Shown: piece after piece, positions 35-56,116 of the stretch
Numbering within the stretch: the stretch's first letter is position 1
How the letters are laid out: each line of letters opens with the position of its first letter
Assembly: GCF_009914755.1 (NCBI RefSeq)
Contig: NC_060925.1
Origin: the human T2T-CHM13v2.0 reference genome, Homo sapiens
DNA: 64,000 nt
Reading direction: 5' to 3' (one strand)
The notes under the pieces: generated by a model
Told to the model about the DNA's origin: nothing
Databases searched by the model: none
What the model saw: the letters and a program-made list of their open reading frames with translations, nothing else
Position numbers and translations under genes: made by a program

Positions 35-1410
<1,376 letters not shown>

Positions 1411-8655: not shown

Positions 8656-9799
8656 TTGACAAGTTTTGAAAGATTTTCATAGCATTGAGGGGAGAAGAAA
8701 AGTGAAACAAAGAGAAGAAATGGGACCCTTCTTTATCCTCCCTCCCCTCAACAGAACTATTAAAACCCGAGATCAGTTTGTTTAGACACTAGTCATATTG
8801 TCCAAAAGATTGCGCATTAAGAATCTCTGTCTTAACTTTAGGCAGAATTATCTTGAACTGTTCTAGTAGGATGGTAATCATGACAGCACAGCTACTGGGG
8901 AAATTAGAACTGAGGTTTCCTCTCTTCCGTTTGCTGAAATAACAGCAAAACTGCTTGAAGAAAACGCACTATATTATTCTAAGAAGTAAATTACAAATAA
9001 GCAACACCCAAAATGTCCCTTACTCATGGTTCCTTGAGTAAAAGGTGCTATGCTTTATCTACCCAATATTGTGAGTAGTATCATTTACAGGCTCATTTCT
9101 ACTAGTAAGTTTTTTTTTTTTTTTTTCAGATCTCTGCTTCTAGCTGTCCTTCCACTCTATCAACTAATATTTCTTTTGCAAAGCTAGGAGGCTTGGTAAG
9201 GTTAAAAATAATTCAACTATATTGTGTTGAACATAATTGAAATGTCATAAACCATCCAGAGAGCAGGAGAACCAGTTCTCTCTTGTTTCTATTGGTGTAG
9301 TCTGTTTACATTTCTGGTCCCGTCCCTGAAGCTTGGACTGAGAGACCTGGTGAGGAATGTTTCCTCTGTAGTTTCGACAGGCACAGCTATTTGTCACTGC
9401 CTCAGAAGCTGCGTGGCTGCAGGTGAGGAAGGCTGCCCTTATGGGAGGGATAATTATGGTCAGTGACCTGTCTGAGCTTGGCCTCACTCTGCACCCAAGC
9501 TCGTGACTGGCTCAGAAAGTCTTCTGCTTCTGTGTTCACATCAATGATTTCCTTCCTTGCTTTCTAGAAGAGAATCGGCCTCTGGTACTGGTGAAGAGAC
9601 CGGAGATTTTCAGTTAGGCATTTTACCTGGCTGAGTGCAGGGCTTGGAGGTGGAGTCGCTTGTGGAAGGATTAACTAGAGGGAGGAGTCACTGTCATTAG
9701 GATACCATACACATGGCAAAACCAAATATAACCACCCACCTCCTCTGACTCACCTACTTAAAGCATGAATAACCTGGAGGGGGTGGTGGCAAGCAGGTA

Positions 9800-16135: not shown

Positions 16136-17171
16136 TCCATTGTATATTTTAAACAAAGGATGTTTAATACAGACTTATTTTTGATGCATTATACATTTTA
16201 AACAACATGAGTTTATAGCCAGTATGGCTTTTACTCCCCTTTCTTTAAGGGGAGATAAGCATACCAGTATTCTATAGAATAGTATCAGCACACAAGGCAC
16301 ACTTGCTTCCCTTTGCTTACCTCTGATTTAAGATCATAACTAAAAGGAATTTATTGAACCTATGGACGTATGTATTTACTTCTGAGTATATATCTCTTCC
16401 TCACATGCATATACCTTACATAAATGATTTCTTCAGTTACCATAGTGATTTAAACAGTTTTAAAACATCTTTATTAAGATTTTAACATACTACAAAATTC
16501 ACCCATTTAAAATGGACACAATTCATTGGTTTTTAGTAGATTAACAAAGTTGTGCAACAACCAGCACCACAATCTAAGTTTAGAATATTTCACCCCAAAA
16601 GAAAACCCATATCAATTAGCAGTCATTTCCCATTCTCTCCTCCATATGCCTCAGTTGTAGGCCACTAATCATGTACTTTCTTTTTCTATATATTTACTTA
16701 TTCTGGACATATATAAATGGAGTCATACAGTATATAGTTTTTTGTGACTGGCTTCTTTCACTTAGCACAGTGTTTTCAATGTTCATCCACGTTGTAGCAT
16801 TTATCAGTACTTCTTTCCTTTTTTTTAAAAAAAAGACTTTTACTTTTTAGAGCTGTTGTAGGTTCACAGCAAAATTGAGCTGAAAGTACAGGGTGTTCTC
16901 ATATACACCCTGCCCTGCTCCATGTAAACCCTCCCCCATTATCACCATCCGCACCGTTGGTGTATTTGTTACCATCAATGAACCTACATTGACATCACTA
17001 TCACTCAGTCCATAGTTTACAGTAGGGTTGGTTCACTCTTACCCTAATGTAGGGTTCATGTGGTGTCGTACATTCTATGGGTTTGGACAAACCTTTAATG
17101 ATGACATGTATCCACCATCGTAGTGTTGTACAGAGTAGTTTCACTGCCCTAAAAATCCTGTTATGTTTAAA

Positions 17172-50261: not shown

Positions 50262-50620
50262 ATTCATTCGTTCATCAAATATTTATTGCCCTGCTAGGTG
50301 TCAGGCTAGGTGCTGGGGATACAAAGCTGAGCCAAAATAGTCTCTACTTTAATGGAGTGTTTGTGTAGCTGGGCATCAATATGAATGAATCACTCCATAG
50401 ATGCAGTCTTACAGCAGTGGTGTCACAAAGACGCTGATGCAGCTGTGAGGGCTTAGAGGAGAGGATTTTACTGCTCCAAGGGGTCCTCCTGGAGGAAGTG
50501 ATGCTGAGCTGAGATCCCAGGAGGAATGGGCATTCACCAGGGGAAGGGCATTTGCTATTGGAGAGAAGTGGCTGGAGGAGGGGGTCGGGGAGCAGCAGTC
50601 CATGTGCAAACTCTCTGGGC
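50262..50620 (-). mobile_element. L2 3' end
   Basis: ATTCATTCGTTCATCAAATATTTATTG...GGTGCTGGGGATACA...CCTGGAGGAAGTGA. Confidence 0.75.
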
Positions 50621-50630
50621 AAGAGGAGCG

Positions 50631-50773
50631 GGCTGAGTGTGGGCATCATGGCTCACTCCTATAATCCCATCACTTTGGGAGACTGAGGCAAGAGGAACCC
50701 TTGAGGCCAAGAGTTTGAGATCAGCCTGTGAACACAGTGAGACCCCATCTCTGCAAAACACAACAATGAAAAA
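50631..50773 (+). mobile_element. FLAM/Alu left monomer
   Basis: GGCTCACTCCTATAATCCCATCACTTTGGGAG. Confidence 0.8.
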
Positions 50774-51208
50774 GGCATCTGTGAGCTATCCGTGGGCAGA
50801 GAGAGCGCAACTAAGCAGTAAGATATGCTCTTTTCATGTGGAGTGAAACATAATCTGGGAAGTGAAAAATTATTCAAGATCTCATGTAGTGGCAGAGACT
50901 CAGCCCCTTGTCCTCCCAGCTGCACGAGTCTGTTGTCTCAGCCTCTCTGCCAGCCCAGCAGTTACTGAACAACTACATGTCGTTCTCAATACCCTAGAAC
51001 TTCTGCTTCCTCAGGGCTGCTGCTTGCTGCCTCCTCTCTTGTGTCTCTTGGCTTATACCAACCACCATCCACTCGAGGAGGGTCTAATTGATCCATTCCT
51101 GCCTGAGGAGACTGTGGGGAGAACTTCCATGTCTGAGCACTTTCTGTGCTGCTGGCTGTCCCGTGGGCAGATGTCAACTCCAGTCCATTCAGCTCTGGCC
51201 CACCTAAC

Positions 51209-51435
51209 TAGTGTTGCTGATGACACCCCTTCTGCTACCACCATCGCTCCTGCTGCTGCTGGGGCCTCCATGTTAGCCTGATACTAGGAGAGCAAGAAAC
51301 TGAAGCCTCCTGATTTTCTCTTCCAGGTGGTATAGCAGTATGAGCACAGGCCAAGCAAGGCTGGCCTTGAGATGAGGAGGCCAGATGGTCCCTGAATCAG
51401 GGTGGTTTCAGCATGCCCAGGAAGGTGCTGCTGCT
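51209..51435 (+). repeat. Left arm of a non-Alu inverted repeat (227 bp)
   Basis: Reverse complement of 52914-53160 at ~92% identity (manual alignment). Confidence 0.97.
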
Positions 51436-51708
51436 TCACAGACAGGTAGCGACTTATACTTAAGAAATTGTTTACAGTGAACAGGATGGGTCCCTTCCCT
51501 CAAAGAGCACTCCATGCAGTTGTGGAAACAGACTCAGTGTGACGGGTACAATACTACAGGTGGCATAGGATATCATGGTGGGAATACTGCAAATCCTTAT
51601 TGAAAACAGGCATATTATAAATACCTTGTAATGAATGCAATACCATAGCTGATACTCATTTCTTTTAGACTTACCTATGTTTTCAGATATATAAAAACTC
51701 TAGGAATT

Positions 51709-52253
51709 CCCAAGGTAATTGAAAACATATGTCCACACAAAAACTTGTACAATAATGTTCATAGCAGCGTTATTCACAATAGCTGAAAGGGGGAAGCAAC
51801 TCAAGTGTTCTTTGATGGATGAATGGATAAACAAAATGTGGTATATCCATACAATGGAATATTATGCAGCCATAAAAAGGAATGAAGTACTATTATATGC
51901 TACAACATGGATGACTCTTGAAAACATGCAGTGAAAGAAGCCAGTCACAAAAAAACTACATTTTATGATTCCATTAATATGAAATGTTCAAATAGGCAAA
52001 TCTATAGAGACAGAAAGTAGAGGAGTGGTTGTCAGGGAGAGAGGCATAGGGAGGAATTGGGAGTGACTGCTAATAGGTACAAGATTTCTTCCTGGGGTGA
52101 TGAAAATGTTCTAGAATTAGCTAGTGGTGATGTTTGCACAACATAGTGAATATACTAAAAACCCCTGAACTGTATACTTTAACAAATGATAGATTTTATG
52201 TTTACTTTAAAAAATGATAGATTTTATGTTATGTGAATGATATGTTGATTTTT
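51709..52253 (+). mobile_element. L1MB-type 3' end in the spacer of the inverted repeat
   Basis: GAAAACATATGTCCACACAAAAACTTGTAC...GGGGTGATGAAAATGTTCTAG; TSD AAA(C/G)TCTAGGAATT at 51695 and 52254. Confidence 0.9.
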
Positions 52254-52913
52254 AAAGTCTAGGAATTAATCAATTATACTGTGATGGAATATGATATTTT
52301 AAGTCAGAAATTTACTTGTGGCATCATCTTCACTGTTCATCTGTAGAATCAGGAGAAGTGATGTTTCCTAGGTTGCTGTGAAGATTAGATAAGATAATGC
52401 ATATGACAGACTTAGCTGCAAGAATATGGGTTGGGAACCCTTTGTTGTTATAGATGCATTTCTAAAGCAACTTTTTTTATGTGTTGCTGTTTGTTGGAGC
52501 CCTCCAGGAGGATCTTGGCACTGAGAGAAATCCCTAAACTAGAGTCATGGCTGAAGAGTGCTGAACACTTCCTGCACTGCTGGCTGTATGGTGGTCAGAT
52601 GCTCCTGACTATGACCCTGCAGTGAAGCCCGGATCTGGGCAAAACTGAGAAGTAGTTGACACTTGCATCTCTTTCCTGACTGTCTTTTCTGGCCTGGTAG
52701 TCTTTTGGGTTATAATTCAGCATCTCTTCCATCTGCATGTCTCAAGTGATTAGTATTTTCCAAAGTGAGCTCATCACATTAATCATATTAGGGTATGAGC
52801 AGCCCTTTTAAGCTGTATTTGTATCTTACAGGAAGACCAGAAAAGCTCAGAAGGAGGAAGAATCTTCAGGCACTGTGCAAAGGGAGGGCAGGGAGAGGGG
52901 GAAGTTATTCTGC

Positions 52914-53160
52914 AGCAGCAGTGCCTTCCTGGGCATCCTGAAACCACCCTGATTCAGGGCCCATCTGGCCTCCTCATCTCAAGGCCAGTCTTGCTTGGCC
53001 TGTGCTCACTGCTGCCACTGCAATGCCATCTGGAAGAGAAAATCAGGACAATGGCTTCAGTTTCTTGCTCTCTTAGGATTAGGCTAACATGGAGGCCCCA
53101 GCAGCCCCAGCAAAAGCAGCAGTGATGGTGGTGGCGGTAGGGGTGTCATTAGCAACACTA
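52914..53160 (-). repeat. Right arm of a non-Alu inverted repeat (247 bp)
   Basis: Reverse complement of 51209-51435, with 9, 4 and 7 nt extra segments. Confidence 0.97.
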
Positions 53161-54607
53161 ATGAATCACTGCTGGGCCCGGTTCTCTTCTCTGACTCAGC
53201 TTGAAACTTCTTTCAGTTAACAGGAAGCCAGTAACCAGTAAAGTCAAAAGCTTATATGCAACTCTCTGGATTGGAAACCACTGGGGTGTTTTTTAAGCTT
53301 CTATTTCTAAAATAAGAAGGGAAACCAATGGACAGAAGCTTCCCTGTCTTCTTTGATGCAGATAAACTATGTTGGTAGAGGGTGATTGTGAGCTGGGGCC
53401 CTTGTTTCTTATGAAACTAAAAAATTCTACATGAGTTTACAAAAACAGGAAGCTGGCAGTGAAAGCTATTGGAATTATGTAAATGAAACAGTCAGTTTGG
53501 AATGCAGGTGGGAGTGTGCCTGTGGGAAAGAATGGAGAATGCATCAGAACACGGGCAGCCAGGTTACCATGCGCTGCTTCAGCACAGGGGAAGATGCGGG
53601 GGGCAAGGAACCTTCACTGCCCTGGCGTCATCAGCCCAGTGCTGCAACAGTGCAGCAGAAAGGGCAGCGGGGAAAGGCGACAGGAAGAGGAATCAAGACA
53701 CTTACATTGCTCTAGGAGAGATTCGCATTTTTTTGTGGATCTGAGGATGGGAGCTCTGGGAGCTCTGGAGCCTCTTCCTGTCCGCAGGCACTGCAAAGCT
53801 TTAGCACACCAGTAGCTCCCCAGAGGGCTGGGAACCCATGCCAGGACTGGCACCCGCTCCGGGAAGGGGTGCTGGGAGTGCCATGATTTAGATCAGTGAT
53901 TCACAAACTTTTGGTAGTGAAGACACTCCGTTAAAGCTTATTGTTTTGGGGTTGTATCCTACTCCCCGCCTTTTAAAAATGTTAGTTAAAAATTTAAATT
54001 AAAATGGACTTTGTTTTAAAATTAAAAATTTCCTGTTGTTTGAAGCTTCTATGACAACTGGGTAGCCTTCTGAGGTATTGTAATACAGTATTAGGATTTG
54101 GACTCTCTGCTGTATACACTAAGCTCTTAAGGGTGAAGGGCAGGCCATTGGTTCTGATAAGAAGAGAGGTTGCCATAGGTATCTCTGCTTTCTTACTCTT
54201 CCCCACTCCAGGCCATGTGGACATCTGGAGATATTTGATAAAATGTCCTTTACCAGCCGAGACTCATGACTAATCAATCGTTGTTTTTGTTGGTTTGCTT
54301 CTAATCCCTCTCCCTTCCAGTCTATCTTTCATCCTGCCATCAATTTCCTAAAACAGATTTGATGTGCCACCTCCCTCCTCAACAGTTTTCAATGGGATTT
54401 CCTACTGCCTGCATAAAGTCTAATGCCTTAGAATGGGGCAAGGAAAGCCTTTCATGATTTAACCCTCTAATACCTTTCTAGTTTCAATTTTTTATAACTC
54501 TCTATTTCGGGTCATTTTTTGAACATCAAGAAACTGAAAAGCATAGCTCAACTGCCTTATACAATACACGCCGTTATTTGCTTCTGGGACAAAAGAAGTC
54601 TAGAGTC

Positions 54608-55760
<1,153 letters not shown>

Positions 55761-56116
55761 TGCATTCCACACACCCTGCACCATCACATCTCCATGCCTC
55801 CCCTTCTGCCACTTCCTGGAACCTACCATCTGCTTCCACTGATCAGAGCCCTGCTTATGCTTCAAAGCCTTGCTCGTGGGCCACCTCTGCTGCTGTGCCT
55901 CTTCTGTTCTGGAAACAGTAATCTTTTTTTTCATCTCTCTACTCTCTAAAGCATATCATGTTTCTATCTCATGTGCATTTACTAATTCTGCTTTGTTTTA
56001 TGTCCACTTGTTTGTATATTTGACTCCTATATTGAACAGAAAGACACTTGAGGTAGGCGGAGTCATACTTTGTTCATTGTAGGGGTTTAAGAGTGTTGAA
56101 TAAATGGTCATGGGCA

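What the first reader, a model, noticed from the sequence alone, without database searches (positions are those of the whole stretch)
51209..53160. Non-Alu long inverted repeat whose substitutions favour G-U pairs: candidate long hairpin/dsRNA on the + strand
Seen: 51209-51435 is the reverse complement of 52914-53160, with a 1478 bp spacer. The arms match no repeat family I recognise. Manual alignment gives 227 aligned positions, 17 unambiguous substitutions, 1 ambiguous position beside a gap (51340), and three extra segments (9, 4, 7 nt), all in the right arm. All 11 unambiguous transitions (left-arm G at 51219, 51246, 51280, 51287, 51327, 51360, 51427; T at 51233, 51236, 51331, 51426) give G-U wobble pairs in a + strand RNA, and none gives A-C. 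The two-sided sign test is about 0.001, or about 0.006 if the ambiguous site is counted as A-C. Four of these changes are at CpG/TpG sites and all went C>T on the + strand. About 220 of 227 left-arm bases could pair, including 51341-51435 (95 bp with only 2 mismatches). Inference: selection is preserving an RNA duplex in a + strand transcript. Known biology that would engage such a stem includes ADAR editing, Dicer endo-siRNA production from hairpin RNAs (described in fly and mouse oocytes), PKR/MDA5 sensing and Staufen binding. Alternative: transcription-linked mutational asymmetry on a neutral inverted duplication.
Basis: partly seen in the sequence, partly recalled or inferred. Interest (0 to 1): 0.9.

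Follow-up and report, generated by a model that had tools for sequence, protein, structure and literature searches.

The report
Unique inverted duplication in CNIH3 intron
A one-off 230-base inverted duplication inside a CNIH3 intron could fold into a long RNA hairpin, but the sign that selection preserves that hairpin is weak, so it looks like an ordinary neutral duplicate.

Summary
Arms 51209-51438 and 52911-53160 align over 250 columns: 211 identical, 11 transitions that give G-U on the + strand, 1 A-C-type site beside a gap, 7 transversions and 3 right-arm insertions. In the whole T2T genome the arms match only each other, so this is not a recognisable transposon pair. The + strand RNA folds into a ~220-bp stem, 34 kcal/mol more stable than the - strand version.

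The selection inference is not shown. Other inverted repeat pairs in the same window already lean to G-U (55-56%). That weakens the sign test to P about 0.008-0.011, or 0.0014-0.0018 if the ambiguous site is left out. Pair-breaking changes are not depleted: ts/tv is 1.7 against 2.2 in the control, 20 nt are bulged, and G-U against all pair-breaking substitutions gives P about 0.065. No orthologues, RNA or variant data could be reached.

Best reading: a neutral, locus-specific inverted duplication, roughly 20-45 Myr old, that passively forms intronic dsRNA.

The parts
51209..51438 (+). Left arm of the inverted duplication (230 nt); 5' strand of the predicted stem in a + strand transcript
   Evidence: apart from itself it matches only the right arm in the whole genome
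52911..53160 (+). Right arm (250 nt), reverse complement of the left arm. It carries all three extra segments (53106-53114, 53049-53052, 53010-53016). It overlaps RefSeq functional-element rows 52635-53164 and 52890-53089.
   Evidence: annotation rows
51439..52910 (+). Spacer or loop, 1472 nt. It contains an L1-like 3' piece. Within it, 51714-51918 is soft-masked, ORF 51719-51934 lies in it, and 51874-52173 matches 16518-16823 in inverted orientation at 75%. The rest is unique.
   Evidence: for uniqueness of the non-L1 parts; the L1 identification is from recall of the ORF2-like peptide
51341..51388 (+). Longest uninterrupted helix of the + strand stem (48 bp including one G-U), pairing with 52961-53008
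   Evidence: helix run lengths; alignment

Best explanation
This is a locus-specific inverted duplication of about 230 bp of unique DNA, not a transposon pair. It lies 61.5 kb downstream of the upstream CNIH3 promoter and 118 kb upstream of the canonical one, inside a long intron of the + strand upstream-promoter isoforms. The arms have since drifted apart by about 8% plus three indels. That corresponds to roughly 20-45 Myr, depending on the substitution rate assumed. When those isoforms are transcribed, the two arms can pair co-transcriptionally into an imperfect dsRNA stem of about 220 bp with a 1.47-kb loop. By inference it behaves like other intronic inverted repeats: it would be bound and probably A-to-I edited by ADAR, and it would be degraded with the intron in the nucleus. 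The run of G-U-type transitions is most likely a mild local strand asymmetry of substitution (55-56% in this direction) plus sampling luck on 12 events. Shown here: the repeat, its uniqueness, its fold and the local asymmetry. Inferred: transcription across it, editing, the age and neutrality.
For: Only the two arms match each other in 3.1 Gb. This holds for BLAST-type searches with each arm and its flanks and for a sequence-only profile, where the next best hit has E=0.036 and 150 of 18318 first-look candidates were scored. There is no Rfam match in the arms, no soft-masking of the arms, and no target-site duplication beyond a palindromic TA (read). The intron position comes from RefSeq transcripts.

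Fold: -440.5 kcal/mol for the + strand, with 220 arm-to-arm pairs kept in the full-length fold.

Controls in the same window: G-U-type fraction 0.551 over 302 pairs and 0.564 over 9 disjoint pairs, with all 9 at 0.50 or above. The fraction is the same in CpG (0.549) and non-CpG (0.552) context. One presumably neutral element at 140-450 reaches 26:6 and 29:7.

Pair-breaking changes are not depleted. The target ts/tv is 12:7, against 2.15-2.26 in controls, and P(7 or more transversions of 19)=0.36-0.40. There are three bulges of 9, 4 and 7 nt. Substitution density in the inner 95 bp is not lower than in the outer 132 bp (Fisher P=0.32). Nearby inverted pairs, which could really pair in the transcript, show no extra G-U bias: 0.533 for spacers under 2 kb against 0.564 for over 20 kb.

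Literature passages read: a preprint, PMC11838218, predicts 5,134,754 human dsRNAs. About half a million of them are non-repetitive, and over 99% have phastCons below 0.5.
Against: Even against the local background, 11 of 12 G-U-type transitions remains nominally unusual: P=0.008-0.011, or 0.0014-0.0018 for 11 of 11. None of the 302 control pairs has a fraction as high (maximum 0.81), although each has more events. The shortage is specific to A-C: 1 A-C-type against 7 transversions has P=0.03-0.04 if both are neutral. The exact multinomial test of 11:1:7 gives P=0.023-0.034.

I cannot name the cause of the background asymmetry. A 80-kb control in a - strand gene (TMCO4) also leans to + strand G-U: 0.537 over 614 pairs, and 445:377 in 21 disjoint pairs. 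The method itself is unbiased, because reverse-complementing the input gives 0.449 and 0.463. So 'transcription-associated' is not established.

Neutrality is inferred without any orthologue or polymorphism data.
Confidence: 0.6

Rival explanations
1. One reading: purifying selection keeps a + strand RNA duplex. On this view A-C-creating transitions were removed while G-U-creating ones were tolerated, and the stem serves ADAR, Dicer, Staufen or a splicing or processing role.
For: There are 11 G-U-type transitions against 0-1 A-C-type. P=0.008-0.011 against the local control. The + strand stem is 34 kcal/mol more stable, and its longest helix is 48 against 28 bp. The arms lie in a + strand intron.
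Against: The 7 transversions produce U-U, C-C, A-G, A-A and U-C oppositions and are not depleted. Three bulges total 20 nt. G-U against all pair-breaking substitutions gives only P=0.065-0.069. If A-C changes and transversions were equally selected against, 1 of 8 being A-C has P=0.03-0.04, so this model fits no better than neutrality. From recall, ADAR edits A opposite C best, which would mend A-C pairs in the RNA. No Rfam family matches. No other genomic locus is complementary to the arms, so there is no trans target for siRNAs. In the dsRNAscan preprint, conserved human dsRNAs are short (median 65 bp) and weak. The test was post hoc.
Confidence: 0.08
2. A mutational process specific to this hairpin, not selection. 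For example, the + (non-template) DNA strand or an extruded structure is single-stranded more often here and suffers C-to-T and A-to-G deamination. That would give G or T on the + strand in both arms.
For: Every one of the 11 transitions can be read as C>T or A>G on the + strand. All 4 CpG-context ones read as C>T on +, including both arms at the 51426/51427 site. It would explain why A-C-type changes are missing while transversions are not.
Against: Other closely spaced inverted pairs in the window show no extra bias: 0.533 for spacers under 2 kb. Passages of PMC2927911 say the C>T over G>A asymmetry in mammals is confined to the first 1-2 kb of transcripts, and this site is 61.5 kb in. Paired stems would protect bases from deamination (inference). 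The whole case rests on 12 events.
Confidence: 0.12
3. The structure is the lone surviving copy of an old or low-copy DNA transposon with about 230-bp terminal inverted repeats. The arms were then born as a pair rather than by local duplication.
For: The architecture is long terminal inverted repeats around a 1.5-kb interior. Both outer ends carry TA (51209-51210 and 53159-53160), as a TA target-site duplication would (recalled for Tc1/mariner). The arm divergence is in the range I recall for the last primate DNA transposons.
Against: No other copy was found in the genome by BLAST-type or profile search. The best weak hit (L009, 67% over 155 columns) is itself unique. No transposase-like ORF is present; the 12 ORFs of 40 aa or more are all short, and I searched none of them against protein libraries. 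TA is self-complementary, so it extends any inverted repeat by chance 1 time in 16.
Confidence: 0.08
4. What matters is DNA, not RNA. One arm is part of a regulatory element and the other is its duplicate, so any constraint acts on factor binding.
For: The right arm lies inside the RefSeq rows 'NANOG-H3K27ac hESC enhancer' 52635-53164 and 'active region_2613' 52890-53089, next to 'OCT4-NANOG-H3K27ac-H3K4me1 hESC enhancer' 53165-53696. Only 8 such rows exist in the 64 kb.
Against: The left arm has no such row. Reporter-assay rows do not show function in place. This reading does not explain a strand-specific substitution pattern. I tested nothing about binding.
Confidence: 0.1

Closest known systems
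Non-repetitive intramolecular dsRNAs predicted genome-wide by dsRNAscan (preprint PMC11838218; passages read)
   Same: Two reverse-complementary arms of non-repeat sequence lie in one transcript and are mostly intronic. The loop of about 1.5 kb is close to that class's medians of 509-1407 nt. The class has about 497,000 predicted members, of which 4,597 have editing on both arms.
   Different: This one is in the upper tail. It has about 220 bp paired and -440 kcal/mol, against medians of 144 bp and -185 kcal/mol for edited non-repetitive members. Whether it is already in that catalogue I could not see, because supplements and the web resource are closed.
Inverted Alu pairs (IRAlus) in introns and UTRs
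   Same: The length (about 230-300 bp), imperfect pairing and intronic setting are the same. From recall, so are the expected fates: ADAR editing and nuclear retention or degradation.
   Different: The arms are single-copy sequence, not a SINE. They pair only with each other, so there is no competition among partners. At 92% identity over aligned bases, they are more alike than the repeat pairs of this window, where 286 of 302 pairs are below 85%.
hpRNA / endo-siRNA loci of Drosophila and mouse oocytes, and plant MIRNA genes born by inverted duplication (recalled)
   Same: Origin by inverted duplication, and a long near-perfect hairpin transcribed from one strand.
   Different: Those hairpins derive from, and target, another gene. 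Here no other locus in the genome resembles the arms. There is no own promoter or annotated transcript. Small RNAs were not testable. LIRBase, the hpRNA-oriented catalogue, requires arms over 400 nt, so this repeat is outside it.
Long, highly paired putative MDA5 substrates (over 300 bp and over 96% paired; PMC11838218)
   Same: A long stem with a 48-bp perfect run.
   Different: It is shorter than 300 bp, 222 of 250 columns pair (89%), and it is intronic, so it is not expected to reach the cytoplasm (inference).

Membership tests
Transposon-derived inverted repeat (inverted SINE/LINE pair, MITE or DNA transposon with long TIRs) | Arms belong to a multi-copy family elsewhere in the genome | tested here: not met
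   BLAST-type searches found 2 matches (arm and its partner), 3 (the third is 41 nt at E=5.6) and 2. The profile search found only the two arms below E=0.03; 150 of 18318 candidates were scored and closed regions are not shown. Very old families below about 70% identity could be missed. No Dfam or RepeatMasker was on hand.
Transposon-derived inverted repeat (inverted SINE/LINE pair, MITE or DNA transposon with long TIRs) | Target-site duplication flanking the outer ends | tested here: not met
   Read: the 8 bases left of 51209 and right of 53160 do not match. Only a self-complementary TA sits at both ends.
Non-repetitive intramolecular dsRNA (dsRNAscan class) | Two reverse-complementary arms within one transcript, neither overlapping an annotated repeat | tested here: met
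   Arms. Both lie in one intron of + strand RefSeq isoforms. The arms are not soft-masked and are single-copy.
Non-repetitive intramolecular dsRNA (dsRNAscan class) | A-to-I editing sites on both arms (the 'edited' subclass) | not testable with these tools
   No RNA-seq or editing database was available. A search for 'CNIH3' plus 'RNA editing' listed 15 papers, and the titles and abstract openings shown suggest no locus-specific hit (listing only).
hpRNA / endo-siRNA locus | Arms homologous to a target gene elsewhere | tested here: not met
   No other genomic match.
hpRNA / endo-siRNA locus | 21-23 nt phased small RNAs from the arms | not testable with these tools
Conserved structured RNA | Match to a curated RNA family | tested here: not met
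   Rfam scan of 50500-53900 at E up to 1 gave 4 weak matches (E 0.12-0.55), all below their gathering scores and none in the arms.
Conserved structured RNA | Covariation or compensatory changes across species | not testable with these tools
   No primate or mammal genomes were reachable; only the two arms of one genome.
Conserved structured RNA | Depletion of pair-breaking substitutions relative to neutral expectation | tested here: inconclusive
   G-U against A-C gives P=0.008-0.011. G-U against all pair-breaking substitutions gives P=0.065-0.069. Transversions are not depleted, and there are 3 bulges.
LIRBase long inverted repeat | Both arms longer than 400 nt | tested here: not met
   The arms are 230 and 250 nt. 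The criterion was read in PMC8728187.

The most novel reading that the evidence does not exclude
A primate-age, non-transposon hairpin of about 220 bp in the upstream-promoter CNIH3 pre-mRNA is held under constraint that tolerates only wobble-forming transitions. Alternatively, it marks a hairpin-specific, strand-asymmetric mutational process. Either way, the G-U against A-C count between the arms of unique inverted repeats would become a usable single-genome test for functional or structurally active long dsRNA in human introns.
Probability: 0.08. Interest if true: 0.65.

Novelty: new member of a known kind. Interest (0 to 1): 0.25.

Why it matters
If the stem were under selection, it would be a rare human case of a long, non-repeat, evolutionarily maintained dsRNA in a gene for a neuronal AMPA-receptor auxiliary subunit. 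That would bear on ADAR substrates and on self against non-self dsRNA sensing. As it stands, it is one more unique intronic inverted repeat of a kind already catalogued in the hundreds of thousands. The useful outcome is methodological. The sign test on G-U against A-C must be calibrated against the local strand asymmetry, which is 54-56% in both regions tested. It must also be paired with a check that transversions and indels are depleted too.

Tried and rejected
Transposon pair: rejected at the sensitivity available. Three BLAST-type genome searches and a sequence-only profile search found only the two arms. I inspected the weak profile hits L008, L009, L011 and L014 (62-69% identity over 94-198 columns). 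The arm-like part of L009 has no further copies; the 40 hits all fall on its neighbouring masked repeat. I take these hits for chance.

Known RNA family: nothing in the arms.

A 41-nt direct repeat, 51133-51173 against 52561-52601, is 80% identical with E=1e-4 locally and 5.6 genome-wide. I treat it as chance.

ORFs: 12 of 40 aa or more overlap 51100-53300 and none is longer than 139 aa. I did not search them against protein libraries.

Transcription as the cause of the background asymmetry: I expected a - strand gene to mirror the window. It did not: TMCO4 gave 0.537 and 0.541 towards + strand G-U. The reverse-complement check shows the method is unbiased. So I report the asymmetry as local and of unknown cause. 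The window has T/A=1.155 on the + strand, whereas TMCO4 has 0.992.

Proximity effect, meaning closer inverted pairs are more G-U-biased: not seen in the window.

Literature: 'CNIH3' with 'RNA editing' listed 15 papers, and the titles and abstract openings shown suggest no locus-specific hit (listing only). I ran no search of papers for this inverted repeat itself, so I make no claim about whether it is in print.

Supplement tables of PMC11838218 (its Tables S2, S5 and S7) and its web resource could list this locus.
Full report
OBSERVATION. The repeat finder reports four collinear inverted blocks that together cover 51209-51438 and 52911-53160. A gapped blastn self-comparison joins them into one match of 250 columns with E 3e-65. 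My own gapped alignment and MAFFT agree on the details:
- 211 identical columns.
- Three extra segments of 9, 4 and 7 nt, all in the right arm (53106-53114, 53049-53052, 53010-53016).
- 19 substitutions.
The one A-C-type site (51340) abuts the 7-nt gap. Four of the 11 lie in CpG context. The repeat runs 3 nt further inward than stated, so the spacer is 1472 nt.

WHAT THE ARMS ARE. In the 3.1-Gb reference each arm matches only itself and its partner. This holds whether I search with the arm alone, with arm plus flanks or with a sequence-only profile of the two arms. In the profile search the next best hit has E=0.036. Only 150 of 18318 first-look candidates were scored, and matches in closed regions are not shown.

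I inspected the weak hits. The best of them, L009, is 67% identical over 155 columns. Its arm-like part has no copies elsewhere either; the 40 hits all fall on an adjacent masked repeat. The arms are not soft-masked. However, the mask covers only part of the L1-like piece in the loop, so it looks word-based and says little about old repeats. There is no flanking target-site duplication beyond a self-complementary TA (read). No Rfam family matches in the arms. The local ORFs are short and I did not search them. Among inverted matches in the window that avoid masked repeats there are 3, and this is the only one longer than 43 nt. I conclude that it is a locus-specific inverted duplication of unique DNA. 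A very old or single-copy transposon cannot be fully excluded without Dfam.

SETTING. The canonical CNIH3 mRNA (NM_152495.2) starts at window coordinate 171120, which is 118 kb downstream of the repeat. The repeat is intronic only in the isoforms that start at -10302 or -10511. It lies between exon 9130-9195 (or exon 1) and the next exon at 70568, 121020 or 235757. Transcription of both arms on the + strand therefore rests on those RefSeq isoforms. I had no expression data.

The right arm lies within two RefSeq functional-element rows: 'NANOG-H3K27ac hESC enhancer' 52635-53164 and 'active region_2613' 52890-53089. The left arm has none, and the whole window has 8 such rows. A ChIP-STARR-seq study of hESC enhancers exists (PMC6084406, search listing only). 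That it is the source of these rows is my recollection.

FOLD. The two arms cofold at -440.5 kcal/mol as + strand RNA and -406.4 as - strand RNA. In the full 1952-nt minimum-energy fold, 220 (+) or 211 (-) arm-to-arm pairs persist. On the + strand 222 of 250 columns pair and the longest uninterrupted helix is 48 bp (51341-51388). On the - strand 212 columns pair and the longest helix is 28 bp. The + strand advantage is simply the G-U pattern restated in energy.

IS THE G-U EXCESS MORE THAN BACKGROUND? I used every other inverted homologous pair in the same 64-kb window as a neutral control. These are mostly Alu-like copies, compared pairwise as they stand. Pairs of 150 columns or more were kept, and the two pairs touching 51000-53300 were dropped.

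The 302 non-independent control pairs give 6174 G-U-type transitions, 5040 A-C-type and 4960 transversions. The G-U fraction is 0.551, and it is the same in CpG (0.549) and non-CpG (0.552) context. Nine disjoint pairs give 276:213:227, a fraction of 0.564 that differs from 0.5 at P=0.005, and all nine are at 0.50 or above.

Against this background, 11 or more of 12 has P=0.008-0.011 and 11 of 11 has P=0.0014-0.0018. Empirically, 141 of 7892 sliding runs of 12 consecutive control transitions (1.8%) reach 11 or more G-U-type. Control pair fractions have mean 0.552, SD 0.086 and maximum 0.81. One element at 140-450 gives 26:6, 29:7 and 29:9 against different partners. Four-to-one skews therefore occur in presumably neutral DNA here.

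CAUSE OF THE BACKGROUND. I expected transcription-associated asymmetry. Passages of PMC2927911 describe A>G over T>C along whole mammalian transcripts, and C>T over G>A only in the first 1-2 kb. The window has T/A=1.155 on the + strand. But an 80-kb control inside a - strand gene (TMCO4) also leans to + strand G-U: 10962:9437 (0.537) in 614 pairs and 445:377 (0.541, P=0.019) in 21 disjoint pairs, with T/A=0.992. Reverse-complementing either input flips the fractions to 0.449 and 0.463, so the method is unbiased. I therefore report the asymmetry as real and local, but of unestablished cause.

DOES THE REST OF THE PATTERN FIT SELECTION FOR PAIRING? It does not.
- A constraint on the duplex should remove transversions and indels as much as A-C transitions. 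The target has 12 transitions to 7 transversions (1.7), against 2.15-2.26 in the controls. P(7 or more transversions of 19)=0.36-0.40.
- The transversions give U-U, C-C, A-G, A-A and U-C oppositions.
- Twenty nt are bulged.
- The direct test of pairing-kept against pairing-broken substitutions (11 against 8) gives P=0.065-0.069.
- If A-C changes and transversions were equally selected against, seeing only 1 A-C among 8 has P=0.03-0.04. The selection model therefore fits no better than the neutral one, whose exact multinomial P is 0.023-0.034.
- Substitution density in the inner 95 bp is not lower than in the outer 132 bp (P=0.32).
- Closely spaced inverted pairs in the window, which could really pair in the transcript, are no more G-U-biased (0.533 for spacers under 2 kb) than distant ones (0.564 for over 20 kb).
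- The test was chosen after the pattern was seen.

What remains odd is a specific lack of A-C-type transitions. Read as mutations, all changes are C>T or A>G on the + strand. I keep a hairpin-specific mutational asymmetry as a rival at 0.12.

AGE. The Jukes-Cantor distance between the arms is 0.084-0.088. This gives 19-44 Myr for assumed rates of 2.2e-9 to 1.0e-9 per site per year. The rates are from general knowledge, and gene conversion between the arms would make this an underestimate.

COMPARISON WITH WHAT IS KNOWN. A preprint, PMC11838218 (passages read), predicts 5,134,754 human dsRNAs. Of these, 4,597 edited and 492,832 unedited ones are non-repetitive. 96% of genic ones are intronic, and over 99% have phastCons below 0.5. 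Conserved ones are short (median 65 bp, -42 kcal/mol). The present stem belongs to that known kind, in its upper tail for length and stability. It fails that paper's 'long, highly paired' criterion of over 300 bp and over 96% paired. LIRBase requires arms over 400 nt (PMC8728187), so this repeat falls outside it. Unlike hpRNA loci, it has no homologous target elsewhere. With about half a million such repeats in the genome, one showing a 1% tail statistic is expected many times over.

VERDICT. The hairpin potential is real and the arms are non-transposon, as far as I could test. Selection on an RNA duplex is not shown and is disfavoured by the undepleted transversions and indels. The most likely account (0.6) is a neutral inverted duplication, roughly 20-45 Myr old, that passively forms an intronic dsRNA, which is probably edited and then degraded with the intron. 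Orthologous arms, variant spectra and RNA data would decide, and none could be reached here.

Noticed in passing
window 52635-53696: The right arm (52911-53160) lies inside the RefSeq functional-element rows 'NANOG-H3K27ac hESC enhancer' (52635-53164) and 'active region_2613' (52890-53089). It abuts 'OCT4-NANOG-H3K27ac-H3K4me1 hESC enhancer' (53165-53696). The left arm has no such row.
   Followed up: partly
window 53049-53052: The 4-nt segment present only in the right arm creates an ACAATG / CATTGT string. I recall this as a SOX-type core motif. It was not tested against any motif library (alignment).
   Followed up: no
window 51133-51173 and 52561-52601: A 41-nt direct repeat, 80% identical, lies just upstream of the left arm and inside the loop. 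E is 1e-4 locally and 5.6 genome-wide. It is probably chance.
   Followed up: partly
window 51700-52250: The loop holds an L1-like 3' piece in + orientation. 51714-51918 is masked, ORF 51719-51934 has an ORF2-like peptide (recalled), and 51874-52173 matches 16518-16823 inverted at 75%. Whether it arrived before or after the duplication is unknown.
   Followed up: no
window 1-64000 and G000:C1:19520001-19600000: Inverted repeat pairs lean to + strand G-U-type differences in both a + strand gene (0.551-0.564) and a - strand gene (0.537-0.541). The method is unbiased under reverse complement. The cause is unknown; replication direction is a candidate.
   Followed up: partly
window 140-450: One Alu-like element shows strongly skewed G-U:A-C counts against several partners: 26:6, 29:7, 29:9 and 32:13. 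This could be a subfamily difference or an element-specific mutational history.
   Followed up: no
window 54617-55524: A dense cluster of Alu-like copies in both orientations forms a large imperfect palindrome. It lies next to H3K4me1 hESC enhancer rows at 55072-56073.
   Followed up: no
window 171120 (outside the window, same gene): The canonical CNIH3 transcript starts 118 kb downstream of the repeat. The whole 64-kb window is intronic only to upstream-promoter isoforms. How much it is transcribed is therefore an open question.
   Followed up: partly
window 53089-53220 (+) and 51053-51271 (-): Because of the inverted repeat, two ATG ORFs (43 and 72 aa) share the same start, MEAPAA.... There is no evidence that either is coding, and neither was searched.
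   Followed up: no
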